DNA of 64,000 bases from Candidatus Saccharimonadota bacterium (GCA_012965045.1 DTSZ01000001.1:503763-567762); one strand, 5' to 3'. Counted from the stretch's first letter, positions 1 through 13,767 are shown. Made by a program: numbers and translations. The notes: generated from the sequence alone by a model not told the origin.

Positions 1-3000
1 CCCGATCCAACTGTATCGAATTCAATGCCTCCTATATTACTGGCTCCTCCCGTTTTATTACCATCTATCTTAAGATCACGAACAGTAATATCACTGTTAC
101 CGCTAACTTGGTCGGAGTTTTCGATTATATTAAATCCGCTTGCGCTATTTCCGACTGTGATCACACTTCCAGTGCCTACTCCTGAAAGAGTAGTGTTGGA
201 AGGTACCGCGATTTGAGCATCAACGTCATAGGTACCAGCAAGTAGAAGAACCTTACCGCCACTTGCTGCAGTTAAGGCCGAATTAATTTCGTCTTCGTCA
301 CTGGTTCCGTCAGCTACGTAGTCAGCTGCATCTTTTTCGGCTTGGGTAGAGTCATTAGCGGCAACTATGGTGTATTCACCACTGTCTGCTTTCCATTTAC
401 CGTTAGCGTAAGTTAGTAGTTTGTCTGTTGTAGTGTCGAAGTAAACCATACCTTCGGTTGGGCTGGCTGGGCGAGATGCGGTGTTACCGCCGGTAATGGT
501 AAGACTATTGCCGGCACCAAGCACAACGTCGCCGTTGAAAGTACTTGTTCCACCGTCAGCTACTGTTAGCACTGCACTACCACCGTCTTGGACAATGAAT
601 GAACCTGTTCCAGTAATGTCTACAGTAAAGTTAGTTGCTTCACTAACAGTAAGGTCAATGTCTCCACCAGCATCGTCAGCCACAATGGTGTTGCCGCCGT
701 CGTAAGCTACTTGCAGAGTAACAGTAGAGGCAGTTAGGAAGGTAGAGTTACAACTTGCCAGTTGACCAGAGCTGTTTCGACACACCACTGCGTCGTTGTC
801 GGCTGCGGCTGCAGTGTAGCTTACTGTTCCGTTAACAGTAAGTGCACTGTTGGCTAGTTGTAATAGATCAGTATCGGCAGCGATTCCAATGTCGCCACCT
901 TCTACTTCTAGGTTGCCACTGAGTGCGGTAATTGCAGCAGTAATGTCTATTGTGCCGTTAGTGCTATTACTAATGACTTCGTCGTTTTCGAGAGTGATGT
1001 CTCCACCTTGAACGTCAAGTGCACCGGTGATGTCTACGTTCGCACCGAGGGTAATGTCGCCAGCTGGTTGGATTAGGTAGTCGCCGGTGGTTTGGTCTTG
1101 TATTTGACCGCCATAAATGGTGCCGGTGCCGCTATCGTTGATAGTCCAATCGTCGTCACCGTCACTATCCGAAACGTAGTTATCGGCAATGTAGTTGTTG
1201 TCTGAGCTAGCATTAAAAATATTAATGCCATAACAGTCAGTGTTACATTCAGTGTCTAATACACGGTTGCTAGTAATCTGGTTATTATCAGAGTTATTAA
1301 TATAGATTGCATTAAATCTGCTAGCTCCGCCGCTTACATTCGAAAGGTTGCCGGTGATGACGTTTGAATCACTGGTGTCGAGACGTATTGCTTCGTTTGT
1401 AGAGCTGTAAATACTGTTTCCAGATATAACGTTGAAGTCGTTGCTGCCAGCAAGATACATTCCACGGTTGCTACCATCTACGGTGTTGCTGCTGACGCTG
1501 TTGTTTTCTGAAGATGAGAAGTAGAGTCCATTACCCGTTACGTTTAACACCGTGTTGCCTGTGATAGTGTTGCTATCTGCATTAGCAAAATGCATTCCGT
1601 CTGTACTGTCAGCTACAGTGTTACCAGTAATAGTGTTGTTGTCAGAAGCAACGTAGAAACCTCGACTGCCACCTTCGGCATAGTTATCGGTAAAGGTGTT
1701 GCTTGTACTTGTAACAGTAACCGTATATTGGTACGTAGTGTTGTTTATAGAGGCGTTGTTCGTTATAGAGTTACTCACACTAGTGCTCGTTAGCGTAATA
1801 CCTTCAGCGTTATTAATAACTGTACTGCCCGACACACGACTGTTGTCGCTCGCAACAAGTTGGATACCGTTGTTCCTAAAGTCTTGTACGTGCACGTTAC
1901 TAATATTTGCCCCCAAACGACTACTAGCAAGATCTCCTACTCCGTTAAAATAAATACCACGTTGCGTCCCCACCGTATTCAAATCATCACGGCCATCGAG
2001 CTTTAGGTCACGGATAGTTACGCCAGTACCAGTTGTAGTGTCGCTGTTTTCAATTAGGTTGTCGGTGGCGTCTATGTCAGCTAGCTCAATGACTGTTCCA
2101 TTACCAACACCAGCCAAAGTAGTGTTGTTAGGTATAAGGATGGTTCCATCAGCTACGTAGGTACCAGCAAGTAGAAGAACCTTACCGCCACTTGCTGCAG
2201 TTAAGGCCGAATTAATTTCGTCTTCGTCACTGGTTCCGTCAGCTACGTAGTCAGCTGCATCTTTTTCGGCTTGGGTAGAGTCATTAGCGGCAACTATGGT
2301 GTATTCACCACTGTCTGCTTTCCATTTACCGTTAGCGTAAGTTAGTAGTTTGTCTGTTGTAGTGTCGAAGTAAACCATACCTTCGGTTGGGCTGGCTGGG
2401 CGAGATGCGGTGTTACCGCCGGTAATGGTAAGACTATTGCCGGCACCAAGCACAACGTCGCCGTTGAAAGTACTTGTTCCACCGTCAGCTACTGTTAGCA
2501 CTGCACTACCACCGTCTTGGACAATGAATGAACCTGTTCCAGTAATGTCTACAGTAAAGTTAGTTGCTTCACTAACAGTAAGGTCAATGTCTCCACCAGC
2601 ATCGTCAGCCACAATGGTGTTGCCGCCGTCGTAAGCACCCTGAAGGTTAAAGTTGGCAGTGCTTAGGAATGTAGAACTACAAGCCGCGAGTTGGTTAGAT
2701 GTGTTTCTACAGACCACGGAGTCGTTGTCGGCAGCGGCAAGAGTTGCTACCTGAACTGTGTCATTAAGGATAATTTCACCAGTACCATTAGCGACCACCG
2801 TTAGGTTCTCGTCGGTACCTGTAGTTATGTCCGTAACAACACCACTAATAGTCAATGAACCAGTGTCGAGTGTAAGGCTGTCTGCAGTCAGAGCATCTTG
2901 TATATCCACGTTGCCACCTGAGCTGTTGATAGTAAGATCTCCGTCGCTTGCGGTTGTAAGATCTGTGTAGTTGGCGGCTGAACCATCTGCGTCATTGTAA

Positions 3001-4616
3001 GTAAGACGCAAGTTACTGCCTGTAGCTGAATTTATTTCGACTTGGCTATCTGGGCCGTTAGTACCTATACCGACGCTTCCGCCGCCATCAATGACCAGCA
3101 CATCTGTAGTATCGGTTTGGTTGTAGACTCTAAATTTGCCGTTATTGTTTCCAAGCCTATACTCATCTCCTGCGGTGTCGGTAAATCTAATTTCTGGAAC
3201 GGTGCCAGAAAGATGAAGTAATTGCTGTGGGCTGGACGTCCCAATCCCTATCCTCTCATTAGTTGTATCTACATTTAAGATCGGTGTGCCGCCATCGGCA
3301 TCCAAGAACTGATAAGCCGTAGTTGAATCCGTTCCGTTCTGGAGCGTAAAGTTGTTGCCAGCGAAAGTCTTCGCCCCAGCAAAGGTTTGGGTGCCGGTTG
3401 AGACGAGTCCGGGGTAGGTTGCATCAGCCGTTTGCAGGAATAGTTCGTTCGCAGAAATAACGCCACCATTGGCATTCTTAGAAGCGCCATTTAAGGTACC
3501 AACTGCAGTAGCACCACTGCCCGCACCGTCAATGTTTGTGCCAACCCACACAGTTCCGTTCCAAATAAATGCTTGGCTGCGTTGACTGTTTATTGTTACG
3601 CCGTACATAGCAAAGCTTTCGGTACCGACGTTGTTAACATACACAACGCGACCACCTGTTGTGACGGTTGGATCTGGCAATGTTAGCGTTTGACCAGATG
3701 TAGTCTGATTAACATTTAGCGTACTGGCAATATCTACTGAATTTGCAGCCGTTTCTACATCGCCGCCACCGCTTACGTCGCTAATTGTGATCGCCGTAAA
3801 TAAGCTACTGCCAGCGTTGGTGAATTGGTTGCCTGCAGTTACCGACAGGTCGCCGTCAAACGTCGAATTACCAGTAACCGTTAGTACGCCCGCATTCGTA
3901 AGAGTAAGAATATCGCTACCGCCATTTTGCAGCTGAAGTAAATTACCAGTGTTAGTTTTGTTAATAAATATGCTGCTATTCGTAGTGTTGTCAGTTTGTG
4001 CGCTGCCTTGAGCCAGTTGAACGAAGTCTGTTGAATCTAAGTTGTCTAGCGTATCAGCGTTATCAGCTTGGAAGGCATACGGGCTAGCAGAGAATCTCAT
4101 GAATGGATCCATTTCGCCGTCGTAGCTGGCAGCACCACCACTGCCACCAATGTCGACAGTCAGCCACAAAGTATCTTCGGTGAAGTCGACGCCAGACAGT
4201 GACGTTAGTGATCCAAGTTGTACCGTAAAGTAACCATTTTCTACCCGAACAAGATTTCCGGTAGAGTGAGCCTCTGTCCATTCCAGTGTTTCATCGCCGC
4301 CGCCAAGATTACCGTCGCCGCCAGAATAGATTCTAAATCGAATGTGATAGTCGCCATCAGGAACAATTCCCTGCGCAGAGTTGCGTAAGCGACCCTGGAA
4401 GGTGAATTGTTCGTTAATGGCAGTTGCGGAGTGAGGGGCTAGTGCTACGAGAGCAGTCATTACAGAAAGAGCAACCAAAAGCACCCCTACACTGCCCAGG
4501 TAGCGGGCGCTTGCTACTGAGCAGTGTATGAATGCCTTAGTTTCTGAAAACGCAAAAACACTACCTTTAACCAAGGTAGTTAATGCATGTGCTAGTGATG
4601 AGAAAATTGTTCTCAT
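1..4616 (-). CDS. Giant secreted/surface protein, N-terminal >=1538 aa (3' end beyond left edge). Tail-fibre-like N-domain plus repeated Pectate_lyase_3/PbH1-type parallel beta-helix modules
   Basis: Absent from the supplied track because it has no stop inside the window. My hand translation of the reverse complement from ATG 4616 (GAGG just upstream) stays open to position 3. It starts MRTIFSSLAHALTT...VGVLLVALSVMTALVALAPHSATA (hydrophobic anchor/signal), then FTFQGRLRNSAQGIVPDGDYHIRFRIYSGG. ADGTSDEDEINSALTAASGGKVLLLAGTY follows, then beta-helix turns NNTITGNTVADS, SNTITGNTVLNV, NNSVSSNTVDGS, FNVISGNSIYSS, SNVITGNLSNV, NNQITSNRVLD. No track ORF occupies this minus frame. Confidence 0.8.
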   Translation of the reverse strand, partial: MRTIFSSLAHALTTLVKGSVFAFSETKAFIHCSVASARYLGSVGVLLVALSVMTALVALAPHSATAINEQFTFQGRLRNSAQGIVPDGDYHIRFRIYSGGDGNLGGGDETLEWTEAHSTGNLVRVENGYFTVQLGSLTSLSGVDFTEDTLWLTVDIGGSGGAASYDGEMDPFMRFSASPYAFQADNADTLDNLDSTDFVQLAQGSAQTDNTTNSSIFINKTNTGNLLQLQNGGSDILTLTNAGVLTVTGNSTFDGDLSVTAGNQFTNAGSSLFTAITISDVSGGGDVETAANSVDIASTLNVNQTTSGQTLTLPDPTVTTGGRVVYVNNVGTESFAMYGVTINSQRSQAFIWNGTVWVGTNIDGAGSGATAVGTLNGASKNANGGVISANELFLQTADATYPGLVSTGTQTFAGAKTFAGNNFTLQNGTDSTTAYQFLDADGGTPILNVDTTNERIGIGTSSPQQLLHLSGTVPEIRFTDTAGDEYRLGNNNGKFRVYNQTDTTDVLVIDGGGSVGIGTNGPDSQVEINSATGSNLRLTYNDADGSAANYTDLTTASDGDLTINSSGGNVDIQDALTADSLTLDTGSLTISGVVTDITTGTDENLTVVANGTGEIILNDTVQVATLAAADNDSVVCRNTSNQLAACSSTFLSTANFNLQGAYDGGNTIVADDAGGDIDLTVSEATNFTVDITGTGSFIVQDGGSAVLTVADGGTSTFNGDVVLGAGNSLTITGGNTASRPASPTEGMVYFDTTTDKLLTYANGKWKADSGEYTIVAANDSTQAEKDAADYVADGTSDEDEINSALTAASGGKVLLLAGTYVADGTILIPNNTTLAGVGNGTVIELADIDATDNLIENSDTTTGTGVTIRDLKLDGRDDLNTVGTQRGIYFNGVGDLASSRLGANISNVHVQDFRNNGIQLVASDNSRVSGSTVINNAEGITLTSTSVSNSITNNASINNTTYQYTVTVTSTSNTFTDNYAEGGSRGFYVASDNNTITGNTVADSTDGMHFANADSNTITGNTVLNVTGNGLYFSSSENNSVSSNTVDGSNRGMYLAGSNDFNVISGNSIYSSTNEAIRLDTSDSNVITGNLSNVSGGASRFNAIYINNSDNNQITSNRVLDTECNTDCYGINIFNASSDNNYIADNYVSDSDGDDDWTINDSGTGTIYGGQIQDQTTGDYLIQPAGDITLGANVDITGALDVQGGDITLENDEVISNSTNGTIDITAAITALSGNLEVEGGDIGIAADTDLLQLANSALTVNGTVSYTAAAADNDAVVCRNSSGQLASCNSTFLTASTVTLQVAYDGGNTIVADDAGGDIDLTVSEATNFTVDITGTGSFIVQDGGSAVLTVADGGTSTFNGDVVLGAGNSLTITGGNTASRPASPTEGMVYFDTTTDKLLTYANGKWKADSGEYTIVAANDSTQAEKDAADYVADGTSDEDEINSALTAASGGKVLLLAGTYDVDAQIAVPSNTTLSGVGTGSVITVGNSASGFNIIENSDQVSGNSDITVRDLKIDGNKTGGASNIGGIEFDTVGS
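229..707 (-). repeat. Intragenic repeat copy 1 (479 bp, identical to 2158-2636)
   Basis: Line-by-line comparison at an offset of 1929 bp. The shadow ORFs 481..705 and 2410..2634 give identical peptides. Flanks on both sides are homologous but clearly diverged. Confidence 0.85.
2158..2636 (-). repeat. Intragenic repeat copy 2 (479 bp, identical to 229-707)
   Basis: Same evidence as copy 1. Encodes ...LQxAYDGGNTIVADDAGGDIDLTVSEATNFTVDITGTGSFIVQDGG...RPASPTEGMVYFDTTTDKLLTYANGKWKADSGEYTIVAANDSTQAEKDAADYVADGTSDEDEINSALTAASGGKVLLLAGTY. Confidence 0.85.
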
Positions 4617-4967: not shown

Positions 4968-5945
4968 CTAAGCGTGTGACTGCTTGAATCCGCGGCTGCC
5001 GATTAGGTTGCCGCCATGACGTTGTTTGTGCTTGTCTGACCAGCGCTGGAAGGATCTACCGATAACAAACGCTACGAACACGCAGACGACAAGCGCGTAG
5101 ATTGGCCACAAGACGTACTGGTCACGTACCACAACATTGGCATTCGGGTCGGCCTCTTGGGTTATGCCACCTACTGCAGGGCCGTTAACAATAGTTAAAA
5201 CCTGCACAAAAGCCAATCGTCCATCTGCATCTGTCGCCTTTACAGTTACAGAATACGTGCCGGACTGATCATAGACATGAGTTGGATTGAATTCACCGCT
5301 ATCATCTAAGCTCAACAGGGTATCCTCGCTTCCGTCGCCCCAATCGATTGATATAGCGTACGGGGCAACACCGCCGCTTACTGATAACGGCCAGGTAATT
5401 TCGTCGCCGGGGTTTACACCCCGCGCACCAAAGTTAGATGTAATGACAAACGGCGATATAGTAGCGATATTTTGCCCGACATCAACACCACCATCTTGCG
5501 GTTGGTAGTTGACTATAACCGGAGCAGAATCTGGCCCCTGTTGGTTAAGAGCATCAAAGGTGCTGGCAATTATGGTATTTAATCCTGGCAGTAAGTCGAT
5601 TTGTAACTGGAAGGTACCATCTTCCAGACAAAGCACTGACCCAGCAAAGGCACCGTTACGACTGATTTGAATAATAGTCCCCGGTACACATTCACCACGA
5701 ACAGCTGTAGGAGTGGAGACAAGTACTTCTTGTTGAGAAGGTACATCAATAACTGCTGGAATATCTGGCGGCGGCCCTGGCACGGTGCCTGTTAAACCAA
5801 CTGATCCGCTTTGAGGATTTTCAACTGTCTGCGCGTTGACATTAGTGAGCGGAATAATAAAAACCCCGACAAACACTAATAGCACGAGTAGCATGTGAGC
5901 TAGCTCGTGCCATAGTTTTGTGTGTTTAGTGTATTCGTGTTGCAT
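4968..5945 (-). CDS. Membrane-anchored PKD-domain surface protein
   Basis: Track ORF of 325 aa. N-terminal hydrophobic segment MLLVLLVFVGVFIIPL, PKD-like module ISIDWGDGSEDT...HVYDQSGTYSVTVKATDADG, C-terminal TM (WPIYALVVCVFVAFVIG) plus a basic tail. Confidence 0.7.
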   Translation of the reverse strand: MQHEYTKHTKLWHELAHMLLVLLVFVGVFIIPLTNVNAQTVENPQSGSVGLTGTVPGPPPDIPAVIDVPSQQEVLVSTPTAVRGECVPGTIIQISRNGAFAGSVLCLEDGTFQLQIDLLPGLNTIIASTFDALNQQGPDSAPVIVNYQPQDGGVDVGQNIATISPFVITSNFGARGVNPGDEITWPLSVSGGVAPYAISIDWGDGSEDTLLSLDDSGEFNPTHVYDQSGTYSVTVKATDADGRLAFVQVLTIVNGPAVGGITQEADPNANVVVRDQYVLWPIYALVVCVFVAFVIGRSFQRWSDKHKQRHGGNLIGSRGFKQSHA

Positions 5946-5994: not shown

Positions 5995-6987
5995 TTAGAA
6001 TCGTCGTGATTTGTTTTGGACTTTTTTAGCATATGACTTAAGGAATAGTCGGCCGCCACCAATAATCACAATCAAACCACCGACAACACCAAGGATAATC
6101 GGCCACGGTAACACCCAAAAGGTTTCATTGACTGCAATAATATCACCACCATCACCATACGATAGGTTGCCCGCTATGGTATAGCGACCAAATTGATATT
6201 TTTCTGACAAATCATTTTCGAACCGACGAATACTGTCTGGCAGGGCAAAGCCGCGCCGAGTGTTGTCGCTATTAAACTCTACTACCTCTTTGACGTTGCC
6301 GACAAAGTTAGAAACTTCAATCCTACCAAACGGAGCTGCGTGAGTGTTACCATTATTTTGAATACGAGCAACAATTTGATCTGGGCTTGCTGTAAAGAAC
6401 GATCCCAATTCTCCATCTTTAGCTGCACCGATTTCTAGTAGACTCAGGTTCTCTACCTCTTCGCCTGCTACGTTTAGAAGAACGATAGTACCAACACTTG
6501 CTGCAAGTGTTACATCTTGATCTGGGTCTGCTTCATTGGCAGCTGTAAATCTTACAATTCCATAATGTCCGCCAGGTGTAGCGTTAGTTGGTACATCCAA
6601 GGTGACTGGGATATCTATAGTCTCGTCTGGTTGTAGCGTAAAGCTGTCAATTGGCTGGAAGTATGTTCTAATACCAAACTCATTTGGTTCTGTTGATTCC
6701 TTAACGATAATTTGCGGCGTACCACTCTCATCTTCTGATGGTAAGAAGTCATTAAAGTTAACCACTACCGTTAATGGGTTGGCTGTGACATTTTTAACTG
6801 TAATAGGGTTCTGGAGTGTTATCCTCTGCCCTGGCTCGGCTTCCGCCTCCTCGACAAGTGTCGACAGCGCAAGACCATTCCCTTGACTGTTCTGTCCGTT
6901 TGCTAAAGATGTAAATCCGAAAATACTTACTGTTGCTATCACTACCATCAACATCATTTTCTGTAGCACAGATAGACGTGAAACCAT
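5995..6987 (-). CDS. DUF916/DUF3324-like (CscA-like) cell-surface protein with C-terminal TM anchor
   Basis: 330 aa with a signal peptide. Two Ig-like halves carry PGGHYGIVRF and QFGRYTIAGNL motifs at the positions typical of DUF916/DUF3324. A single C-terminal TM (WPIILGVVGGLIVIIGGG) is followed by a basic tail KKVQNKSRRF. Assignment rests on remembered family architecture, not a search. Confidence 0.6.
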   Translation of the reverse strand: MVSRLSVLQKMMLMVVIATVSIFGFTSLANGQNSQGNGLALSTLVEEAEAEPGQRITLQNPITVKNVTANPLTVVVNFNDFLPSEDESGTPQIIVKESTEPNEFGIRTYFQPIDSFTLQPDETIDIPVTLDVPTNATPGGHYGIVRFTAANEADPDQDVTLAASVGTIVLLNVAGEEVENLSLLEIGAAKDGELGSFFTASPDQIVARIQNNGNTHAAPFGRIEVSNFVGNVKEVVEFNSDNTRRGFALPDSIRRFENDLSEKYQFGRYTIAGNLSYGDGGDIIAVNETFWVLPWPIILGVVGGLIVIIGGGRLFLKSYAKKVQNKSRRF

Positions 6988-7073: not shown

Positions 7074-8174
7074 TTAAAACGTGGCCGTAGCTACATATGT
7101 AAGCGTTGTTGAATATATACCCTTTGGCTGGTTTTCGGGAATATTAACAATGTAGCTGGCTGTGAAGGTTTTTCTGTCGCTTGGGATTGGGCTGACAGCA
7201 ACAGTATCACCAGATATGAACTTATATACATTGGGTGTGTTGTAGTTACTGGCAACAGTTGCCGTACCCGGGCCAGCTGGCTCTAAACCAACGACTGGTT
7301 GTGTGTTTGCGCGAAGGTTGAGCCCAAACTGCTTCGTGCCTGTTTGACTTGCCGTCGGGGACGCCATGTTTGTAATTGTATTATTTCCAGATGTCATTGT
7401 AGTGCCAAGGACAGAAACTGCATACCCAAACTCGGCATTGGTATAGGCTAAGAATTTTGAAGTGCCAGTTTTTGTGGTGTTACTTGATAACTCACCAAAA
7501 CTCAGCTGAAATCCTGTAGCGGTACCACAATCATTGGCTAGGATTGTCGTACCAACACAAAATGTCAAAAACGGCGGAACATACGCTTGAATGTTAAAGC
7601 GAGTATTAAGCGCGAAAGCTAATCCACCTTGGTCAACCACATTACCGGTGATGCGACCATCAGTACTATCATAGGTCCGTATTCGAACATAATGAGATCC
7701 CGCTGTATCTGGATTTATCAAGTTCCCAAAATCGAAACTGGTCGTTGCGACGGTCGTATTTTGGGCGGCTACTCTATTTACAACAATGTAGTTGTTGTCA
7801 GTATATGTACCGTTATACGTACTCGGGTGAACCACAAAACTATCAGCTATAGGCTGGTCTGCCTCGCCTGATTGGTCGTCTATTGAAGCATTAGTCACAT
7901 CGATACCGCTCGGCGCAGTACAAGGTTCTGAAGGTATTGGACTGTTTGAGCAATATTCAAATTCAATTGATCCTACATTCCCCCCAAGTTCAAGGTCGAA
8001 CGTATAATCGTGGTTTACAGCTAGCTGGCTCGGCGTCGATGAAGATAGCTCTATGGATCGATCACCAATATCAGCCGCTGTGACATGTTTTGCGAAATAC
8101 GGAAACGGCACACTTGAAATCAAGAGTGCCGTTATTCCGATACTTGCTAGTGTTTGTGCAAGTCTATGTCGCAT
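7074..8174 (-). CDS. Secreted surface protein, paralog family (CSNSPIPS motif, C-terminus ...TLTYVATATF)
   Basis: 366 aa with a signal peptide. Shares RSI-x-LS...EFEYCSNSPIPSEPCTAPSGIDV with the two 450-aa paralogs and FGLNLRANT with the 248-aa protein. Ends in an aromatic residue. Confidence 0.7.
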   Translation of the reverse strand: MRHRLAQTLASIGITALLISSVPFPYFAKHVTAADIGDRSIELSSSTPSQLAVNHDYTFDLELGGNVGSIEFEYCSNSPIPSEPCTAPSGIDVTNASIDDQSGEADQPIADSFVVHPSTYNGTYTDNNYIVVNRVAAQNTTVATTSFDFGNLINPDTAGSHYVRIRTYDSTDGRITGNVVDQGGLAFALNTRFNIQAYVPPFLTFCVGTTILANDCGTATGFQLSFGELSSNTTKTGTSKFLAYTNAEFGYAVSVLGTTMTSGNNTITNMASPTASQTGTKQFGLNLRANTQPVVGLEPAGPGTATVASNYNTPNVYKFISGDTVAVSPIPSDRKTFTASYIVNIPENQPKGIYSTTLTYVATATF

Positions 8175-8186
8175 TACTATTCAATC

Positions 8187-9536
8187 TTAGAAGCTTGAAG
8201 TAGCTATGTAAACAATTGAGGTGTTATACACACCAGTAGGTGTTGTAATTGCAGCCGTACCACCAAAGTCAATTACTAACATTTCGTCGTCTAACACTGT
8301 AGAGCTTGAAGCAATTGTGTCAGCTGTTAGGTCGTTAGCAACGAATGTGTATTGAGCAGGTGTATCGTATTCTGCGTCTTCAGCTAGGTTCGAAGTCGTA
8401 CCGTTGGTTACGTCAATTGATGAAATTGTCATACCAAAGTTTTCAGTACCAGCTACGATCGCTGCTTCTGTAGCACCAACTGCGTTAATACAGCCGTTCA
8501 CTTGCGAGGCGGCGCCGTCAGTACAGTCTGCACCATTCTTAGAAAGGTAGCCGTCGTTGGTGTCGTTTGCACCACCAACACCACCACCGCCGTCGTCGTT
8601 GACGTCTTGGCCAGCGTCGGCGAAGTAGCTAATAGTTGCACCATTAGCAGCGTTGGTTCTAATCATGGCATAGGCGTTACTGTCTTCGGCTGAAGCAGTG
8701 TTAACGCTTGTTGAATCTAAGACACCCATGTCAATGTCATTGCCGCTTATGTCATCACAGTCGTTTGTGGTCGCTGCGTCAGTATCACCGACACAGAACT
8801 CTAAGACTTCCTGAACTCGAGCTGTAATAGTTAGCGTGTCAACAGTACTCATTGCGATACCGCCGTCATCTTCGTAAGAAGACGTTAAGTCTTGTGCATC
8901 AGCATCATTGTCTGCGTACAAACGAGCATAGAATGAACCAAAGTTGTTGGCACCAGCGGTGTCACTTGGGTTAATAATGTCCGCAGTTGCATCAACAGGA
9001 GAAAGAGTTATACGTACATATCGTTCAGTTGAATAGTTTGCACTTGTTGAATGTTCAATTACAAGCGTTGTTCCGTCTGATCGAAGCGTGTCAGTTATAG
9101 CTTCTTCATCAAAACTCCAGTCAGCAGAGACATCAGTTGGAGATGCAAAACCAGAGTTGTCGTCCGTTTCAACAGTTAGGGTGACGTTGTCTGACACATC
9201 ACCGTCGTTGTCGGTGTCAAAGTCCGGTACATCTAAACCTTCGGTAGCAGTACAAGCGTCAGATGGAATTGGACTGTTAGAACAGAACTCAAGCGTATAT
9301 CCTTCAAAGTCAGCCACGGTCGTTGTGTCGCCCGGGTTGAAGTAAAACTCGTGAGTATAGGTAACTCCAACCGCACTAACGCGGCTATCTGAGATCGCGA
9401 TAGATCGTTGGTCTAATTGCGCTGCGTCAACGCGTTGAGCGCTGAGCATAAATGGTGCGAAGCTAGCAAAAACTAATGCAGCTATCTGCAACCACGCAGC
9501 AACAGACGAATTTAAATTAATATTGAAGTGTTTCAT
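8187..9536 (-). CDS. Secreted acidic surface protein, tandem duplicate copy 1 (C-terminus ...SIVYIATSSF)
   Basis: The track ORF starts at 9545 (MSVMKHF...). ATG 9536 (MKHFNINL) matches the start of copy 2. Signal peptide, EFCSNSPIPSDACTATEGLDV motif, very Asp/Thr/Ser-rich. Confidence 0.75.
   Translation of the reverse strand: MKHFNINLNSSVAAWLQIAALVFASFAPFMLSAQRVDAAQLDQRSIAISDSRVSAVGVTYTHEFYFNPGDTTTVADFEGYTLEFCSNSPIPSDACTATEGLDVPDFDTDNDGDVSDNVTLTVETDDNSGFASPTDVSADWSFDEEAITDTLRSDGTTLVIEHSTSANYSTERYVRITLSPVDATADIINPSDTAGANNFGSFYARLYADNDADAQDLTSSYEDDGGIAMSTVDTLTITARVQEVLEFCVGDTDAATTNDCDDISGNDIDMGVLDSTSVNTASAEDSNAYAMIRTNAANGATISYFADAGQDVNDDGGGGVGGANDTNDGYLSKNGADCTDGAASQVNGCINAVGATEAAIVAGTENFGMTISSIDVTNGTTSNLAEDAEYDTPAQYTFVANDLTADTIASSSTVLDDEMLVIDFGGTAAITTPTGVYNTSIVYIATSSF
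8254..9536 (-). repeat. Tandem duplication block, copy 1 (1283 bp, identical to 9772-11054)
   Basis: Offset 1518 bp. The encoded proteins are identical from MKHF to ...IDFGGTA. Shadow ORFs 8502..8693/10020..10211 and 9088..9345/10606..10863 are identical. Confidence 0.85.
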
Positions 9537-9646
9537 GACAGACATGTCTCCTTATTTGTTTTTGTTTTAGCTAGGGTACTATCTAATTTAACACAAGCAT
9601 TTCACTAATAACAACTATTTATCCACAGGTACAGTAGTGAAACAGA

Positions 9647-9673
9647 AAGAACGACCAGGTCTTGGTCGTTCTT
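9647..9673 (-). terminator. Hairpin terminator between the two duplicated genes
   Basis: On the minus strand: AAGAACGACCA-AGACC-TGGTCGTTCTT (11-bp perfect stem) followed by T-rich TCTGTTTC. Confidence 0.5.
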
Positions 9674-9704
9674 GTATCCGTTAGATGGAGGTGGATATTG
9701 AAAG

Positions 9705-11054
9705 CTAGAATACTGCGGTAGCAATATACACGATAGACGTATTGTATACGCCAGTCGGTGTAGTGATGTTTGCCGTACCACCAAAGTCAATTACTAACAT
9801 TTCGTCGTCTAACACTGTAGAGCTTGAAGCAATTGTGTCAGCTGTTAGGTCGTTAGCAACGAATGTGTATTGAGCAGGTGTATCGTATTCTGCGTCTTCA
9901 GCTAGGTTCGAAGTCGTACCGTTGGTTACGTCAATTGATGAAATTGTCATACCAAAGTTTTCAGTACCAGCTACGATCGCTGCTTCTGTAGCACCAACTG
10001 CGTTAATACAGCCGTTCACTTGCGAGGCGGCGCCGTCAGTACAGTCTGCACCATTCTTAGAAAGGTAGCCGTCGTTGGTGTCGTTTGCACCACCAACACC
10101 ACCACCGCCGTCGTCGTTGACGTCTTGGCCAGCGTCGGCGAAGTAGCTAATAGTTGCACCATTAGCAGCGTTGGTTCTAATCATGGCATAGGCGTTACTG
10201 TCTTCGGCTGAAGCAGTGTTAACGCTTGTTGAATCTAAGACACCCATGTCAATGTCATTGCCGCTTATGTCATCACAGTCGTTTGTGGTCGCTGCGTCAG
10301 TATCACCGACACAGAACTCTAAGACTTCCTGAACTCGAGCTGTAATAGTTAGCGTGTCAACAGTACTCATTGCGATACCGCCGTCATCTTCGTAAGAAGA
10401 CGTTAAGTCTTGTGCATCAGCATCATTGTCTGCGTACAAACGAGCATAGAATGAACCAAAGTTGTTGGCACCAGCGGTGTCACTTGGGTTAATAATGTCC
10501 GCAGTTGCATCAACAGGAGAAAGAGTTATACGTACATATCGTTCAGTTGAATAGTTTGCACTTGTTGAATGTTCAATTACAAGCGTTGTTCCGTCTGATC
10601 GAAGCGTGTCAGTTATAGCTTCTTCATCAAAACTCCAGTCAGCAGAGACATCAGTTGGAGATGCAAAACCAGAGTTGTCGTCCGTTTCAACAGTTAGGGT
10701 GACGTTGTCTGACACATCACCGTCGTTGTCGGTGTCAAAGTCCGGTACATCTAAACCTTCGGTAGCAGTACAAGCGTCAGATGGAATTGGACTGTTAGAA
10801 CAGAACTCAAGCGTATATCCTTCAAAGTCAGCCACGGTCGTTGTGTCGCCCGGGTTGAAGTAAAACTCGTGAGTATAGGTAACTCCAACCGCACTAACGC
10901 GGCTATCTGAGATCGCGATAGATCGTTGGTCTAATTGCGCTGCGTCAACGCGTTGAGCGCTGAGCATAAATGGTGCGAAGCTAGCAAAAACTAATGCAGC
11001 TATCTGCAACCACGCAGCAACAGACGAATTTAAATTAATATTGAAGTGTTTCAT
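9705..11054 (-). CDS. Secreted acidic surface protein, tandem duplicate copy 2 (C-terminus ...SIVYIATAVF)
   Basis: 449 aa. AGGAG lies 8 nt upstream of ATG 11054. Identical to copy 1 apart from the last ~21 codons. Confidence 0.8.
   Translation of the reverse strand: MKHFNINLNSSVAAWLQIAALVFASFAPFMLSAQRVDAAQLDQRSIAISDSRVSAVGVTYTHEFYFNPGDTTTVADFEGYTLEFCSNSPIPSDACTATEGLDVPDFDTDNDGDVSDNVTLTVETDDNSGFASPTDVSADWSFDEEAITDTLRSDGTTLVIEHSTSANYSTERYVRITLSPVDATADIINPSDTAGANNFGSFYARLYADNDADAQDLTSSYEDDGGIAMSTVDTLTITARVQEVLEFCVGDTDAATTNDCDDISGNDIDMGVLDSTSVNTASAEDSNAYAMIRTNAANGATISYFADAGQDVNDDGGGGVGGANDTNDGYLSKNGADCTDGAASQVNGCINAVGATEAAIVAGTENFGMTISSIDVTNGTTSNLAEDAEYDTPAQYTFVANDLTADTIASSSTVLDDEMLVIDFGGTANITTPTGVYNTSIVYIATAVF
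9772..11054 (-). repeat. Tandem duplication block, copy 2
   Basis: See 8254-9536. Confidence 0.85.
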
Positions 11055-11175
11055 TTTGAAACTCCTTAATTTTTGTTTTTATTTTTTAAACCCACGCCTC
11101 AAAGGCATTGTTTTTTTATTTTTGCCTACGTGTAGTTACTTTTTACCATAAGTGTTTTATAAAAAGCAAATTATT

Positions 11176-11922
11176 TTAATACGTAGCTGTGGCTACTAAA
11201 ATATGATCCATTGAAAATTCTCCACCTTCTGTTAATGGACCCGCGTTTGCAATATAGCTAATTGTAAAGTCTGTTTGCCCAGTTGATTCAGTTGATTCAG
11301 CGATGGTTTCTCCAACGTTGTATCTAAATTGGTTAGCCGTACCATAGCCAGCCGCAACGGTAGCAAAACTAAAACTGGCATCCGGAACCTGAGTAGGGTC
11401 AGCGCCGAAGGTTGTTGGGCTCGTATTAGCAACTAAGTTCATGCCGAACTGCTCGGTGCCCGTAGAAGATGGCCCTGTTGATGTCATTGGGTCAAGTGTG
11501 GCTGGGCCATTGGAAGGTGGTTGGCTAAGCGTTTGCACCACCACGCCGTCGGCATTATAAGCACCAACACTAAACGTTGCTGTGCCCGTACCAGTAGTAG
11601 ATGTATCAATAAGCCCCAATCCTACTTCGCCACCGTTGACTGTAAACAACAGTGTTGGCTCAGCGTCCGTCGTAAAGCCAGCCAATAAGTTATAGCTAGC
11701 AGAGCTCGATTCGCCAGCCCCAATATCACCAAGATTACCTTGCAAGTTGTAGCCGGAGGAGTTTGCGTCACTGGTGCCAGCCGGACCAATAAAAAACTCG
11801 CCAAGATTATAGCTATTAGAGCTTGGCGCCTGTGCCAAGACGCTATTAATCGAGTTTAATGCAACTAGTAAAGCAATAAAAACGTATCTGGAAACCCTAT
11901 TAAACATAAGAACATTGTGCAT
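11176..11922 (-). CDS. Secreted surface protein, short paralog (three S-x-YNL repeats, C-terminus ...ILVATATY)
   Basis: 248 aa with a signal peptide (FIALLVALNSINSVLAQA). Contains SNSYNLGEFFIG / SSGYNLQGNLGDIG / SASYNLLAGF. FGMNLVANTSPT resembles FGLNLRANTQP of 7074..8174. Ends in an aromatic residue. Confidence 0.7.
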   Translation of the reverse strand: MHNVLMFNRVSRYVFIALLVALNSINSVLAQAPSSNSYNLGEFFIGPAGTSDANSSGYNLQGNLGDIGAGESSSASYNLLAGFTTDAEPTLLFTVNGGEVGLGLIDTSTTGTGTATFSVGAYNADGVVVQTLSQPPSNGPATLDPMTSTGPSSTGTEQFGMNLVANTSPTTFGADPTQVPDASFSFATVAAGYGTANQFRYNVGETIAESTESTGQTDFTISYIANAGPLTEGGEFSMDHILVATATY

Positions 11923-12005: not shown

Positions 12006-12959
12006 GTGGCGGAAGAAGAAACAAAAACAACTGATAATTCGAATGAGCCAACTGGCGAGCAAAAACCTGGCTTAGATTCGCAGGTAGCGCTCGATTCTTT
12101 TGATAAAAAGGAAGAAAAGAAAAAGAAGGGCTTTTTAAGTAACTTTAAAACCTTTAATCCGTTCTTTATAGCAATTGGCGGGATCTTTGTCGTTGTTTTA
12201 GTTGTACTAATTATTGTTTTTACTGGCAGTGAACCAGACACTTTTATAGGAGCAGACTTAAGCGAAGACGAACTAACCTCATTGATATCTGACAGCAGCG
12301 AAAATGAATCAACCGGCCAAGTTCTGCGAATTGGCCCAGCTACAGAATTTTCTCAAGACGTATCAGTGCTCCAAGATGTCGAAATCGTTGGTAACTTAGT
12401 TGTAGCAGGTGAAATCATTAGTGCAAATTCATCGCTGGCTGGACAAAACGCCGAAGACCCAACACAGGCTGGCGGCGACGACTTGCAAGTTGACGGCGAC
12501 GCACTATTTTCTGGAAACATCGCCACTCAAGGGTCATTAACAGTTAACGGTACACTTACTGTTAATAGCTCTATAACTGCTACATCAATTACAGCCACAA
12601 CCATAAATTCTACTGGCGACGCCACATTCTCGCGCCACATAGTGTCTAACGCCACGCTGGTTGTAGTTTCAACTGGATCTGCCGCAGGTTCTGGCGGAAC
12701 AACATCTGCTAGTGGAAACGACATTGCTGGTACGGTCACAATCAATACTGGTAGCGCCACAACAGCCGGCGTTTTAGCAAACATTGGCTTCCAGCAAGCC
12801 TATGGCAGCACGCCGAGCGTAGTTATTACTCCAGTCACCTCAGCAGCCGCCTTAACAGAGTATTTTGTAACCAGAACTACCACAGGATTTACTATCCAAA
12901 CAAACATTGCACCACCTATCGGCTCTACACTACAGTTTGATTACCATATTATTGAATAA
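12006..12959 (+). CDS. Membrane-anchored hypothetical protein (charged N-terminus, one TM, Thr/Ser/Gly-rich ectodomain)
   Basis: 317 aa with a GTG start and GAGGAG 10 nt upstream. TM segment FFIAIGGIFVVVLVVLIIVF. The C-terminal ~90 aa (DIAGTVTINTG...GFQQAYGSTPSVVITP...YFVTRTTTGFTIQT...LQFDYHIIE) looks like a small beta-sandwich/lectin-like domain (inference). Confidence 0.6.
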   Translation: MAEEETKTTDNSNEPTGEQKPGLDSQVALDSFDKKEEKKKKGFLSNFKTFNPFFIAIGGIFVVVLVVLIIVFTGSEPDTFIGADLSEDELTSLISDSSENESTGQVLRIGPATEFSQDVSVLQDVEIVGNLVVAGEIISANSSLAGQNAEDPTQAGGDDLQVDGDALFSGNIATQGSLTVNGTLTVNSSITATSITATTINSTGDATFSRHIVSNATLVVVSTGSAAGSGGTTSASGNDIAGTVTINTGSATTAGVLANIGFQQAYGSTPSVVITPVTSAAALTEYFVTRTTTGFTIQTNIAPPIGSTLQFDYHIIE

Positions 12960-12960
12960 A

Positions 12961-13767
12961 CTAAATACGAATTACGCCGTAGGCGCTTAATATACCAACC
13001 GCAAAGACAACGATCACAAGCATTGTTACTTGTAGTAAGCTGCGGTATACAGCTTTTTTCGATAGAGGGTTACGACCAATAGAAACCAAAGCTGTTCGAA
13101 TAGCCCCAAGAAGCAACGCAACTGAGACAATGGTGCTAACCAAAATCAATATAACCGCACCAATAATTTTAGTCGTCGACACCGGTTTACCGGCTAGACT
13201 TTCACCAAGGCGTGTAACGAATGCCGGCAGTAAGCTCGCAGACCCTTCTGGTTGAACCTGAATCTGAATAGTCCCCAGCGCAACCTCGCGCGATGAACCA
13301 TCTTCAAGTTCGACGGTTTTACGGCTCTTTGCGTCCTCTGTGCCGGCAAAATCTTGCAAAGCAGTTCCAATACTAGCTTTATCGGTAGAAGCCCGTTGCG
13401 CAACGCCAGAGATCGGAGAAATAGACAATTGATCGCCAGCTTTAATCGGCCCGTTAGCGTCACTTACAAAGGCCATAGCTTGGCCGAGGGTCGTTACAAA
13501 TAAATTGTCATCTTGGTTTTGCAAGCGAATACTATTGTCGCTAATTGATGTCACGACTCCAAAGAGTTTCTCGGCATTGGTTGGTGCTGGTTCAACTGTT
13601 CGATCTGCTTCGTTTTTTAAAACTACAATGGTGCCGGGTGGTATTTCGGTTTCTGACTTATACGATGCTGACACATTAGCTTGAGCAACAACTAACCCAG
13701 TCGATGCCAATAGCCCAACGAGAACCAATAGGTACGGAATAGTAAACTGTTTAATATGTTTTTTCAT
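12961..13767 (-). CDS. Secreted-domain protein with a C-terminal two-TM hairpin (loop SIGRNPLSKK)
   Basis: 268 aa with a signal peptide, a ~190-aa soluble domain and two C-terminal hydrophobic helices separated by GRNP. Lies 69 nt downstream of atpC on the same strand. Confidence 0.6.
   Translation of the reverse strand: MKKHIKQFTIPYLLVLVGLLASTGLVVAQANVSASYKSETEIPPGTIVVLKNEADRTVEPAPTNAEKLFGVVTSISDNSIRLQNQDDNLFVTTLGQAMAFVSDANGPIKAGDQLSISPISGVAQRASTDKASIGTALQDFAGTEDAKSRKTVELEDGSSREVALGTIQIQVQPEGSASLLPAFVTRLGESLAGKPVSTTKIIGAVILILVSTIVSVALLLGAIRTALVSIGRNPLSKKAVYRSLLQVTMLVIVVFAVGILSAYGVIRI

What the first reader, a model, noticed from the sequence alone, without database searches (positions are those of the whole stretch)
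8187..11054. Tandem gene pair: 1283 bp of perfect identity, while the last 21 codons differ at nearly every third position
Genes 8187..9536 and 9705..11054 are identical from the ATG through codon ~427. The final ~21 codons encode almost the same peptide (A/N-ITTPTGVYNTSIVYIAT-SS/AV-F) yet differ at nearly every third position. Examples are ACA/ACT, CCT/CCG, GGT/GGC, GTG/GTA, TAT/TAC, AAC/AAT, ACC/ACG, TCA/TCT, ATT/ATC, GTT/GTG and TAC/TAT. Upstream regions also differ from the first base before the ATG. The duplication is therefore old. A conversion tract with precise ends has since homogenised most of the coding sequence, while the C-terminal strand stays conserved only at protein level. This indicates purifying selection on the C-terminal motif and concerted evolution of the rest. 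A hairpin terminator between the copies suggests they are transcribed separately.
Basis: seen in the sequence. Interest (0 to 1): 0.6.

Follow-up and report, generated by a model that had tools for sequence, protein, structure and literature searches.

The report
Duplicated pilus-subunit gene kept identical
Two side-by-side copies of the main pilus-subunit gene of an uncultured Saccharibacterium are letter-for-letter identical except for their last 67 bases, which is best explained by an old gene pair recently homogenised by recombination: a clean but ordinary case of concerted evolution.

Summary
On the minus strand, genes 9705..11054 and 8187..9536 share exactly 1283 identical bases from the ATG. 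The last 67 bases then differ at 23 positions. Fifteen of the 19 codons that keep the same amino acid differ, which matches synonymous saturation.

The genes are tandem copies of a two-domain Pam pilin, pamA-like by position. They lie in a CPR "Pam pilus" operon (pamT, pamA x2, pamE-like, chaperone-like, pamR) next to the ATP synthase genes.

The conserved C-terminal peptide is a family-wide motif, seen in 120 homologues. It ends the Ig-like acceptor domain.

Other Saccharibacteria carry tandem pamA pairs with the same layout of terminator, A-rich leader and RBS between the copies. These pairs range from uniform ~80% nucleotide identity, through mosaic identical patches, to a 1163-nt identical tract. 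Paralogues cluster by genome, while the gene ends and leaders keep signs of position-specific ancestry.

Old duplication plus recent gene conversion is therefore well supported.

Caveat: four other assemblies of the same strain are the window minus exactly one 1518-nt repeat period; three run through a single copy and one begins at the ATG. A Logan contig independently contains body-tailB-spacer-ATG. Copy number therefore still needs read-level confirmation and may be polymorphic.

The parts
9705..11054 (-). pamA-like major pilin gene, copy 1 (449 aa, tail ...TANITTPTGVYNTSIVYIATAVF; NCBI HIA91979.1)
   Evidence: ORF. NCBIfam CPR_Pam_pilin_C scores 45.8 bits, below the cut-off of 55. hhalign gives 99.8% probability against the neighbouring Pam pilin. 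Exact protein found in NCBI and ENA.
8187..9536 (-). pamA-like major pilin gene, copy 2 (449 aa, tail ...TAAITTPTGVYNTSIVYIATSSF; NCBI HIA91978.1). An in-frame ATG lies 9 nt upstream at 9545.
   Evidence: The tail peptide is identical to that of the single orthologue in L006.
9772..11054 (-). 1283-nt tract of copy 1 (ATG to second base of codon 428), identical to 8254..9536
   Evidence: exact, not extendable
8254..9536 (-). 1283-nt tract of copy 2, identical to 9772..11054
9705..9771 (-). Diverged 3' tail of copy 1 (67 nt including TAG), a relic of the old divergence
   Evidence: 23 of 67 nt differ from tail A. Over the last 69 nt, 19 positions differ from the L006 tail.
8187..8253 (-). Diverged 3' tail of copy 2 (67 nt including TAA), orthologous to the tail of the L006 gene
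   Evidence: Over the last 69 nt, 14 positions differ from L006, and the peptide is identical
9537..9704 (-). 168-nt spacer between the copies, unique in the window, 37% G+C
9647..9673 (-). Intrinsic-terminator-like hairpin after copy 1 (11-bp stem, 5-nt loop, TCTGTTT tail)
9559..9570 (-). Leader motif CTAAAACAAAAA upstream of copy 2. It is invariant upstream of the second pamA copy in four other lineages.
   Evidence: 10 occurrences in about 300 kb, all next to pamA-like genes, all on the gene strand
9548..9553 (-). AAGGAG ribosome-binding site of copy 2 (11 nt before the ATG at 9536)
11055..11175 (-). pamT-pamA intergenic region with the A-rich leader and AAGGAG (11062..11067) of copy 1. It is homologous to the upstream region of the single L006 gene.
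11176..11922 (-). pamT (tip pilin, single Ig-like domain)
   Evidence: NCBIfam NF058579, 295.5 bits against a cut-off of 240
7074..8174 (-). Second two-domain Pam pilin (366 aa), pamE-like by position
   Evidence: NF058581, 183 bits against a cut-off of 55; hhalign
5995..6987 (-). Putative membrane-anchored Pam chaperone (signal peptide, C-terminal TM helix)
   Evidence: Only a weak Pfam WxLIP_PGBD hit, E = 0.022. Position in the operon. This assignment is inferred.
4968..5945 (-). pamR (RbmA-like anchor/terminator protein)
   Evidence: NCBIfam NF058578, 355.7 bits against a cut-off of 300

Best explanation
The two genes are an ancient tandem pair of the pamA-like major pilin gene. They sit in the Pam pilus operon of a hydrothermal-vent Saccharibacterium. 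Each copy has its own leader and ribosome-binding site, and a terminator-like hairpin follows copy 1.

A very recent non-reciprocal recombination event, or a run of such events, copied one gene body onto the other. This would be intrachromosomal gene conversion, presumably RecA-dependent. On the 5' side it reached the end of usable homology at the ATG. On the 3' side it stopped where the sequences were already too different to pair. That left the last 67 nt as a relic of the old divergence.

The relic still encodes almost the same peptide because it is the family-wide C-terminal motif (TTPTG-x-Y ... [FY][IV]AT-x-[TS][FY]-COOH). This motif closes the Ig-like C-terminal domain, which by analogy with the published Pam pilin structures accepts the donor strand of the neighbouring subunit.

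Functionally, the pair most likely raises the supply of a very abundant structural protein. The 1.3-kb perfect direct repeat also makes the locus prone to loss or gain of a copy.

Shown here: the sequence facts, the family assignment, the motif conservation, and the comparative pattern in other genomes. Inferred: the recombination mechanism, its direction, the structural role of the last strand, and the dosage role.
For: The identity and its sharp ends are exact.

The tail is synonymously saturated. A mutational burst could not leave most of the changed codons synonymous.

The operon is identified by NCBIfam PamT, PamR and Pam_pilin_C hits. It matches the operon and ATP-synthase neighbourhood described for Ca. 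Mycosynbacter amalyticus (bioRxiv 10.64898/2026.03.03.709456). hhalign gives 99.8% probability against the neighbouring bona fide Pam pilin.

The AlphaFold model has a confident C-terminal domain (pLDDT 85-96) whose last strand is residues 441-447. The conserved linker (233-240) is disordered in the monomer.

The C-terminal motif is near-invariant in 120 homologues.

Tandem pamA pairs or arrays occur in nine further loci: L009, L010, L011, L014, L015, L022 (four copies), L023, and L029, L031 and L032. L010 has a 1163-nt perfect tract that leaves the signal-peptide codons and the last 7 nt diverged. L029 and L031 are mosaics of identical patches within 50-85% identical sequence.

Paralogues cluster by genome. 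In contrast, the second-copy leaders share an invariant 12-mer across five lineages. The L010 and L009 second copies share the most similar signal peptides and a terminal Y, against a terminal F in both first copies.

The single L006 gene has copy 1's upstream region and copy 2's tail and downstream region. This is what a deletion between two ancestral copies would leave.

Independent support for the tandem junctions comes from Logan contig L028 of run SRR1217567. It equals window 11054..9530 exactly: body, tail B, spacer, then the first 7 nt of the next copy.

Against: Four other assemblies of the same strain (L002, L003, L004, L005) equal the window minus exactly one 1518-nt period. L002, L003 and L005 run through as a single copy, and L004 begins at the ATG.

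The JGI metagenome contig collection holds neither a tail B nor a spacer 30-mer. The two-copy state could therefore be a minority haplotype, and copy number is unverified without reads.

The 5' end of the identical tract falls exactly at the ATG, while 67 nt escaped at the 3' end. This asymmetry is explained only by assumption.

The tail is too short to date the duplication firmly (P = 0.03 against orthologue divergence, P = 0.15 against saturation).

Positional orthology of the leaders is not universal. L022 and L031 carry the 12-mer on the first copy, and L006 has it farther upstream.

The closest relative has one copy.
Confidence: 0.72

Rival explanations
1. Assembly artefact. The strain has a single pamA (upstream B, body, tail A). 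The second tail and spacer come from another co-occurring strain or locus and were threaded into a loop by the assembler.
For: L002 (205-kb JGI contig), L003 and L005 pass straight through as a single copy. They are 100% identical to the window minus one period. No JGI contig holds tail B or the spacer. The nearest relative L006 has one copy.
Against: Tail B and the spacer are real sequence. They are joined on one side to the body's 3' end and on the other to ATGAAAC in an independent Logan contig from another assembler. The spacer leads into the start of the same gene, which a strain variant of a single-copy locus would not do. L004 and L028 both begin exactly at the ATG, as expected for a branch or a step in coverage at a repeat boundary. 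No homologue between 75% and 98% identity exists in about 5.8 billion proteins that could be the body of a different gene carrying tail B. Short-read assemblers routinely collapse a 1.3-kb perfect repeat.
Confidence: 0.1
2. Real copy-number polymorphism. Both a two-copy and a one-copy haplotype coexist in the vent population. The one-copy form is generated from the two-copy form by recombination between the 1283-nt direct repeats. This is an addition to the best explanation, not an alternative to it.
For: From the same run, SRR1217567, MEGAHIT produced upB-body-tailA (L005) and Logan produced body-tailB-spacer (L028). Single-copy contigs come from several samples. A one-copy form can arise from two copies by one crossover, whereas the reverse cannot create tail B and the spacer.
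Against: Exactly the same contigs are expected from repeat collapse or from pruning of a 235-nt loop at low coverage. No coverage data are available.
Confidence: 0.3
3. The tail difference is kept by selection. The two pilins are functional isoforms whose C-termini (ATAVF against ATSSF, plus N429) give different chaperone handling or a different order of incorporation. Conversion into the tail is therefore selected against.
For: All three amino-acid differences lie in the C-terminal hairpin. Valine at the penultimate position is unique among 121 sequences. In L010 the only 3' difference is the terminal residue (F/Y), and the same F/Y pattern by position is seen in L009. The Pam paper reports stretches of different pilins within one filament.
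Against: In L029 the last 156 nt are identical between the copies. In L031, L011 and L032 the C-terminal residues are the same. There is therefore no general rule that the tails stay different. An edge effect of homology explains the relics without selection. Three substitutions cannot support a test for selection.
Confidence: 0.12
4. Recent whole-gene duplication, followed by replacement of one tail through recombination with DNA from a diverged relative.
For: Saccharibacteria are naturally competent (title and abstract of PMC10633639). The tail B peptide shares lineage-specific residues (VYNTSIVYIAT) with tail A and L006, so the donor would have to be a fairly close relative.
Against: A recent tandem duplication would make a spacer out of the downstream and upstream flanks. 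The spacer matches neither. It has the terminator-leader-RBS layout and the 12-mer typical of second-copy spacers in distant lineages. This rival needs two unrelated events where one suffices.
Confidence: 0.05

Closest known systems
Pam pili of Candidatus Mycosynbacter amalyticus (PamA/PamB/PamE pilins, PamT tip, PamC/PamD chaperones, PamR anchor; Troman et al., bioRxiv 10.64898/2026.03.03.709456)
   Same: The operon parts match: PamT and PamR score above the NCBIfam cut-offs, and two-domain pilins carry the Pam C-terminal domain. The ATP-synthase neighbourhood and the conserved cysteine pairs also match. The host is a CPR/Saccharibacteria bacterium.
   Different: Here the pilin next to pamT is present twice and nearly identical. 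No pamB or pamC is seen in this locus. The paper does not mention duplicated pilin genes, paralogues or gene conversion. No direct sequence comparison with M. amalyticus PamA was possible here.
Concerted evolution of duplicate bacterial genes by gene conversion (tufA/tufB in Salmonella, PMC5485169; long-lasting recurrent concerted evolution in prokaryotes, PMC6053082)
   Same: Paralogues within a genome are far more alike than orthologues. Tracts are bounded by the limits of homology. The pattern recurs in several lineages.
   Different: The tuf copies are dispersed and inverted, whereas these are adjacent direct repeats. Deletion or amplification is therefore also possible. The gene encodes a surface filament subunit rather than a core cellular component.
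Neisseria pilE/pilS pilin antigenic variation
   Same: Non-reciprocal recombination among pilin gene copies (my own knowledge, not tested here).
   Different: That system uses promoterless, truncated silent cassettes to diversify one expressed gene. Here both copies are complete and have an RBS, and recombination has erased differences rather than created them.
Chaperone-usher pilins (Pap/Fim) and their conserved C-terminal strand
   Same: Both have an incomplete Ig-like fold completed by a donor strand (paper). Both have a conserved C-terminal beta-strand motif with alternating hydrophobic residues, an aromatic residue at or next to the C-terminus, and a glycine about 14 residues upstream. 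The Pap/Fim motif is from my own memory.
   Different: There is no usher and no outer membrane. The donor strand is an internal linker, not an N-terminal extension. The chaperones are membrane-anchored. No sequence homology is detectable.

Membership tests
Pam pilus system pilin (NCBIfam NF058581 CPR_Pam_pilin_C; Troman et al. 2026) | C-terminal domain scores above the curated cut-off of the family model | tested here: not met
   45.8 bits against a cut-off of 55 for the duplicated protein. The neighbouring 366-aa pilin scores 183 bits and PamT 158 bits.
Pam pilus system pilin (NCBIfam NF058581 CPR_Pam_pilin_C; Troman et al. 2026) | Demonstrable homology to a bona fide Pam pilin over both domains | tested here: met
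   hhalign of the 33-sequence family profile against the 366-aa pilin: probability 99.8%, E = 4e-29, 348 columns. hmmsearch gives 136.6 bits.
Pam pilus system pilin (NCBIfam NF058581 CPR_Pam_pilin_C; Troman et al. 2026) | [quoted passage not shown] | tested here: met
   In the AlphaFold model, helix 2-31 is the signal sequence. The N-terminal domain is rich in beta-strands. The linker 233-240 has pLDDT below 50. The C-terminal domain has pLDDT 85-96. Conserved columns include L235, T236, A239, R240, V241, Q242 and E243, and the cysteines C85, C95, C248, C260, C338 and C349. No signal-peptide predictor was run.
Pam pilus system pilin (NCBIfam NF058581 CPR_Pam_pilin_C; Troman et al. 2026) | Located in a pam operon (pamT, pamR, membrane-anchored chaperone) beside ATP synthase genes | tested here: met
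   PamT scores 295.5 bits and PamR 355.7 bits, both above their cut-offs. ATP synthase Pfam hits lie next door. The chaperone assignment rests only on a weak WxLIP_PGBD hit and a C-terminal TM segment.
Pam pilus system pilin (NCBIfam NF058581 CPR_Pam_pilin_C; Troman et al. 2026) | Polymerises into a filament by donor-strand exchange | not testable with these tools
   Needs cryo-EM, biochemistry or multimer modelling.
Orthologue of M. amalyticus PamA specifically (rather than PamB or PamE) | Best reciprocal similarity to WP_260763287.1 | not tested
   That sequence could not be retrieved here. The assignment rests on the gene's position next to pamT and on my reading of accession order in the paper.
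Concerted evolution by gene conversion between paralogues | Paralogues within a genome are more similar than orthologues between genomes | tested here: met
   In the neighbour-joining tree and the best-hit table, the pairs of W, L009, L010, L022, L023, L029, L031 and L032 each cluster by genome.
Concerted evolution by gene conversion between paralogues | Abrupt switch between an identical tract and anciently diverged flanks, with mosaic patches in related pairs | tested here: met
   0 differences in 1283 nt against 23 in 67 nt. L010 has a 1163-nt tract. L029 has identical runs of 71, 123, 86 and 156 nt within 50-78% identical sequence.
Concerted evolution by gene conversion between paralogues | Flanks or relic ends show position-specific orthology across genomes, meaning the duplication is older than the homogenisation | tested here: inconclusive
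   In favour: the 12-mer CTAAAACAAAAA lies upstream of the second copy in five lineages; the L010 and L009 second-copy signal peptides are the most alike and share the F/Y terminal pattern; L006 combines copy 1's upstream region with copy 2's tail. Against: L022 and L031 carry the 12-mer on the first copy, and the segments are short.
Concerted evolution by gene conversion between paralogues | Homologous recombination machinery (RecA) present in the genome | not tested
   Not looked for. Only 64 kb of a roughly 930-kb genome is in the window.
Pilin antigenic-variation cassette system (pilE/pilS type) | Silent, promoterless or truncated donor copies and sequence-variable regions between copies | tested here: not met
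   Both copies are full-length with a start codon and RBS, and they are identical over 95% of their length.

The most novel reading that the evidence does not exclude
Tandem pamA arrays (one to four copies across Saccharibacteria) may be a recombination-driven variation module for the host-contact pilus. Crossovers between the repeats would switch copy number (1, 2 or more) and so pilin dosage. Patchy conversion would shuffle surface-exposed N-terminal domains between copies. The relic ends (signal peptide, C-terminal strand) and the conserved second-copy leader CTAAAACAAAAA would give each copy its own regulation or its own route of assembly. [quoted passage not shown]
Probability: 0.15. Interest if true: 0.6.

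Novelty: new member of a known kind. Interest (0 to 1): 0.35.

Why it matters
Pam pili were described only in 2026. They are thought to be how these ultrasmall episymbionts reach their hosts.

The major pilin gene often sits in tandem arrays that are repeatedly homogenised or patched by recombination. This matters in three ways. It is relevant to pilin dosage and to variation of the host-contact surface. It has a practical consequence, because short-read assemblies collapse these loci: four of six assemblies here lack one repeat period, so copy number in CPR MAGs is underestimated. It also means that pilin phylogenies will group paralogues by genome and hide old duplications.

The relic tail gives an internal, natural demonstration that the C-terminal strand motif is under strong purifying selection.

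As an evolutionary mechanism, however, this is textbook concerted evolution.

Tried and rejected
- Pfam gave nothing for the duplicated protein.
- A PDB sequence search with the family profile gave no hit.
- Foldseek against the PDB gave only generic Ig-like adhesins and Gram-positive pilins at TM of about 0.2, which is not informative. The PamA structure is not in that copy of the PDB.
- Rfam found nothing between 7000 and 12500.
- Two exact-match scans of the JGI metagenome contigs, one for a tail B 30-mer and one for a spacer 30-mer, found nothing.
- The idea that the tail differs more than saturation allows, which would mean selection for DNA dissimilarity, was rejected: 15 observed against 12.4 +/- 2.0 expected, P = 0.15.
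- A simple recent tandem duplication was rejected. The spacer is not made of the flanks, and the tails differ.
- A mutational burst in the tail was rejected. Most of the changed codons are synonymous.
- A second source of tail B or the spacer elsewhere in the window was not found.
- The literature searches found no report of gene conversion in Saccharibacteria pilins.
Full report
**Observation.** The region holds two 449-codon ORFs on the minus strand: 9705..11054 (upstream copy, here copy 1 or "B") and 8187..9536 (downstream copy, copy 2 or "A").
- In gene orientation the two are identical for nt 1-1283. They differ at 23 of the last 67 nt.
- The identical tracts are 9772..11054 and 8254..9536. 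Neither can be extended by a single base on either side.
- Of the last 22 sense codons, 19 keep the same residue and 15 of those differ, all at third positions.
- Three codons are non-synonymous (A429N, S447A, S448V), and the stop codons differ.
- The flanks are at random-level identity (26-30%).
- The 15/19 figure is compatible with synonymous saturation and does not exceed it. The expectation from local codon usage is 12.4 +/- 2.0 (P = 0.15). The NG86 dS is undefined and dN is 0.13.

**What the genes are.** NCBIfam identifies the neighbourhood as a CPR "Pam pilus" operon.
- 11176..11922 is PamT (295.5 bits, cut-off 240).
- 4968..5945 is PamR (355.7 bits, cut-off 300).
- 7074..8174 carries the Pam pilin C-terminal domain (183 bits, cut-off 55).
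- The duplicated protein hits the same domain below the cut-off (45.8 bits).
- A profile of 33 homologues of the duplicated protein aligns with the 366-aa pilin over both domains, with hhalign probability 99.8%.
- The system was described in 2026 for Ca. Mycosynbacter amalyticus. Its pilins have two domains and polymerise by donor-strand exchange of an internal linker strand into a truncated Ig-like C-terminal domain. The operon also has a tip pilin PamT, membrane-anchored chaperones and an RbmA-like PamR, and it sits beside ATP synthase genes (bioRxiv 10.64898/2026.03.03.709456).
- The window shows the order pamT, pilin x2, pilin, chaperone-like, pamR, with atpD and atpC next door.
- The duplicated gene is pamA-like by its position next to pamT. 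I could not compare it directly with M. amalyticus PamA.
- The AlphaFold model has mean pLDDT 74.9 and a confident C-terminal domain (pLDDT 85-96). Its last strand is residues 441-447. The highly conserved linker (residues 233-240) is disordered in the monomer, as expected for a donated strand.
- Across 120 homologues the C-terminus reads A-[SA]-x-T-T-P-T-G-x-Y-x-[VT]-T-x-[TN]-[FY]-[IV]-A-T-x-[TS]-[FY]-COOH. P, G and Y occur in 119 of 120 sequences.
- This explains why the tail peptide is held constant while its codons drift.

**Is the pair real?** The window is identical to a 929-kb ENA scaffold (L001). Both proteins are in an NCBI TPA Saccharibacteria MAG (HIA91978.1 and HIA91979.1).
- Four other assemblies of the same strain equal the window with exactly one 1518-nt period removed: a 205-kb JGI contig (L002), L003, L004 and a MEGAHIT contig (L005). 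L002, L004 and L005 are 100% identical to that one-period-deleted sequence, and L003 differs from it only by a 2-nt T-run indel. L002, L003 and L005 run through upB-body-tailA as a single copy, and L004 starts exactly at the ATG.
- Two exact scans of the JGI contigs, one for tail B and one for the spacer, found nothing.
- Against a pure artefact, a Logan contig from run SRR1217567 (L028, 1525 nt) matches window 11054..9530 exactly. It runs from the ATG through the body, tail B and the spacer to the first 7 nt of the next copy. MEGAHIT produced the single-copy path from this same run.
- All four junctions therefore exist in reads, and the spacer leads back into the start of the same gene.
- No 75-98% identical homologue exists that could be a different gene carrying tail B.
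- The simplest reading is a real tandem repeat of at least two copies that short-read assemblers often collapse.
- A genuine mixture of two-copy and one-copy genomes cannot be excluded, and it would be unsurprising for a 1.3-kb perfect direct repeat.

**How old is the duplication, and what homogenised it?**
- The nearest relative (L006; PamA 75% and AtpD 93% amino-acid identity) has one gene. Its upstream region is homologous to that of copy 1. Its downstream region and its tail peptide match copy 2. A deletion between two ancestral copies, or an assembly collapse, would leave exactly this.
- Between the window and L006, 0.55-0.59 of same-residue codons differ in six genes. The fraction is 0.55 for tail A against the L006 tail and 0.79 for tail A against tail B (binomial P = 0.03).
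- Tail B is therefore at least as old as that split, although 22 codons cannot date it firmly.
- The 168-nt spacer is not built from the flanks. It is unique in the window and has its own terminator-like hairpin, A-rich leader and AAGGAG. A recent simple duplication is thus excluded.

**Comparative evidence.** A scan of species-representative genomes plus contig look-ups gave tandem pamA pairs or arrays in L009, L010, L011, L014, L015, L022 (four copies), L023, L029, L031 and L032.
- Where I read the spacers (L010, L029, L031, L032), they contain a hairpin followed by an A-rich leader and an RBS.
- The pairs span a continuum:
  - L032 is uniformly about 80% identical at the nucleotide level.
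  - L029 and L031 are mosaics in which runs of 53-156 identical nt interrupt 50-85% identical sequence.
  - L010 has a 1163-nt perfect tract that leaves only the signal-peptide codons and the last 7 nt diverged.
- In L029 the identical patch includes the 3' end. Escape of the tail is therefore not a general rule.
- Paralogues cluster by genome in a distance tree.
- The leaders behave differently. The second copies of W, L010, L029, L014 and L009 share the invariant 12-mer CTAAAACAAAAA. First or only copies share an ATTAAAAA-type leader.
- This 12-mer occurs 10 times in about 300 kb of loci. Every occurrence is on the gene strand and next to a pamA-like gene.
- The second copies of L010 and L009 have the most similar signal peptides and both end in Y. 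Both first copies end in F.
- Taken together, this is the signature of an old tandem pair whose bodies are recurrently homogenised.
- Position-specific orthology is not perfect. L022 and L031 carry the 12-mer on the first copy.
- In Salmonella tuf genes, conversion tracts run until they meet the bounds of the gene (PMC5485169). This fits the 5' end at the ATG and a 3' end where the sequences were already too diverged to pair.
- Long-lasting recurrent concerted evolution is reported as rare in prokaryotes (PMC6053082). pamA may be a further example.

**Mechanism and function (inferred).**
- Intrachromosomal gene conversion, presumably RecA-dependent, copied one body onto the other very recently. 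There are no differences in 1283 nt.
- The two products differ at only three residues in the C-terminal hairpin.
- The likeliest consequence is a higher supply of a major structural protein. PamA was the second most abundant protein in M. amalyticus.
- A functional difference between the tails is possible. Valine at the penultimate position is unique among 121 sequences. It remains unsupported.
- Separate transcription is plausible, given the hairpin and an extended -10-like TGnTAAATT that I saw by eye about 45 nt upstream of the ATG. The consensus scan reported no promoter in the spacer.

**Verdict.** This is a clean example of concerted evolution in a newly described pilus system. It is not a new kind of element. 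The main open point is copy number at the read level.

Noticed in passing
window 9559..9570 (minus strand); also L006:5448, L009:1923, L010:5928, L014:7480, L018:3905, L022:5454, L025:7542, L029:3974, L031:2405: The 12-mer CTAAAACAAAAA occurs 10 times in about 300 kb of pam loci. It is always on the gene strand and always in an intergenic region next to a pamA-like gene, usually 15-35 nt before the RBS of the second copy. It occurs once in the 64-kb window. Its function is unknown; it could be a leader or translation enhancer, or a regulator site. In L025 it lies in a 536-nt gap after the only pamA, which may be a trace of a lost second copy.
   Followed up: partly
window 1..4616 (minus strand); repeats at 229..809 and 2158..2738: A giant gene runs off the start of the window. 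In L001 it encodes 3045 aa with NosD and beta-helix Pfam hits, directly downstream of pamR. It contains an internal 584-nt direct repeat at 94.9% identity, 1929 nt apart.
   Followed up: partly
L002, L003, L004, L005 compared with the window: Four public assemblies of the same strain equal the window minus exactly one 1518-nt period. L002, L003 and L005 run through the locus as a single copy, and L004 begins at the ATG. This is a concrete example of tandem pilin copies being lost in short-read MAG assemblies.
   Followed up: yes
L022:5497..11432: One Saccharimonadales MAG carries four tandem pamA-like genes that are 57-68% identical to each other, followed by the pamE-like gene.
   Followed up: partly
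L010:4543..7257: This is an independent second case of a perfectly identical tract (1163 nt) in a tandem pamA pair. Here the relics are the signal-peptide codons and the last 7 nt (terminal F against Y).
   Followed up: yes
window 12006..12959 (+) and 12961..13767 (-): Two conserved genes lie between pamT and the ATP synthase genes. One is a 317-aa protein with a weak bactofilin-like repeat hit, possibly the 'tail fibre-like' protein of the Pam paper's neighbourhood analysis. The other is a 268-aa membrane protein. Both are also present in L006.
   Followed up: no
window 9537..9545: Copy 2 has an extra in-frame ATG 9 nt upstream (MSV-MKHF...), only 2 nt after the AAGGAG. The homologous ATG at 9536 is 11 nt from the RBS, against 7 nt for copy 1. 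Translation initiation of the two copies may therefore differ.
   Followed up: no
window 5995..6987 (minus strand): The chaperone-like protein gives a weak Pfam hit (E = 0.022) to WxLIP_PGBD (formerly DUF916). This is the peptidoglycan-binding domain of WxL-interacting proteins of Firmicutes surface-protein clusters. It may hint at a distant link between Pam chaperones and those clusters.
   Followed up: no
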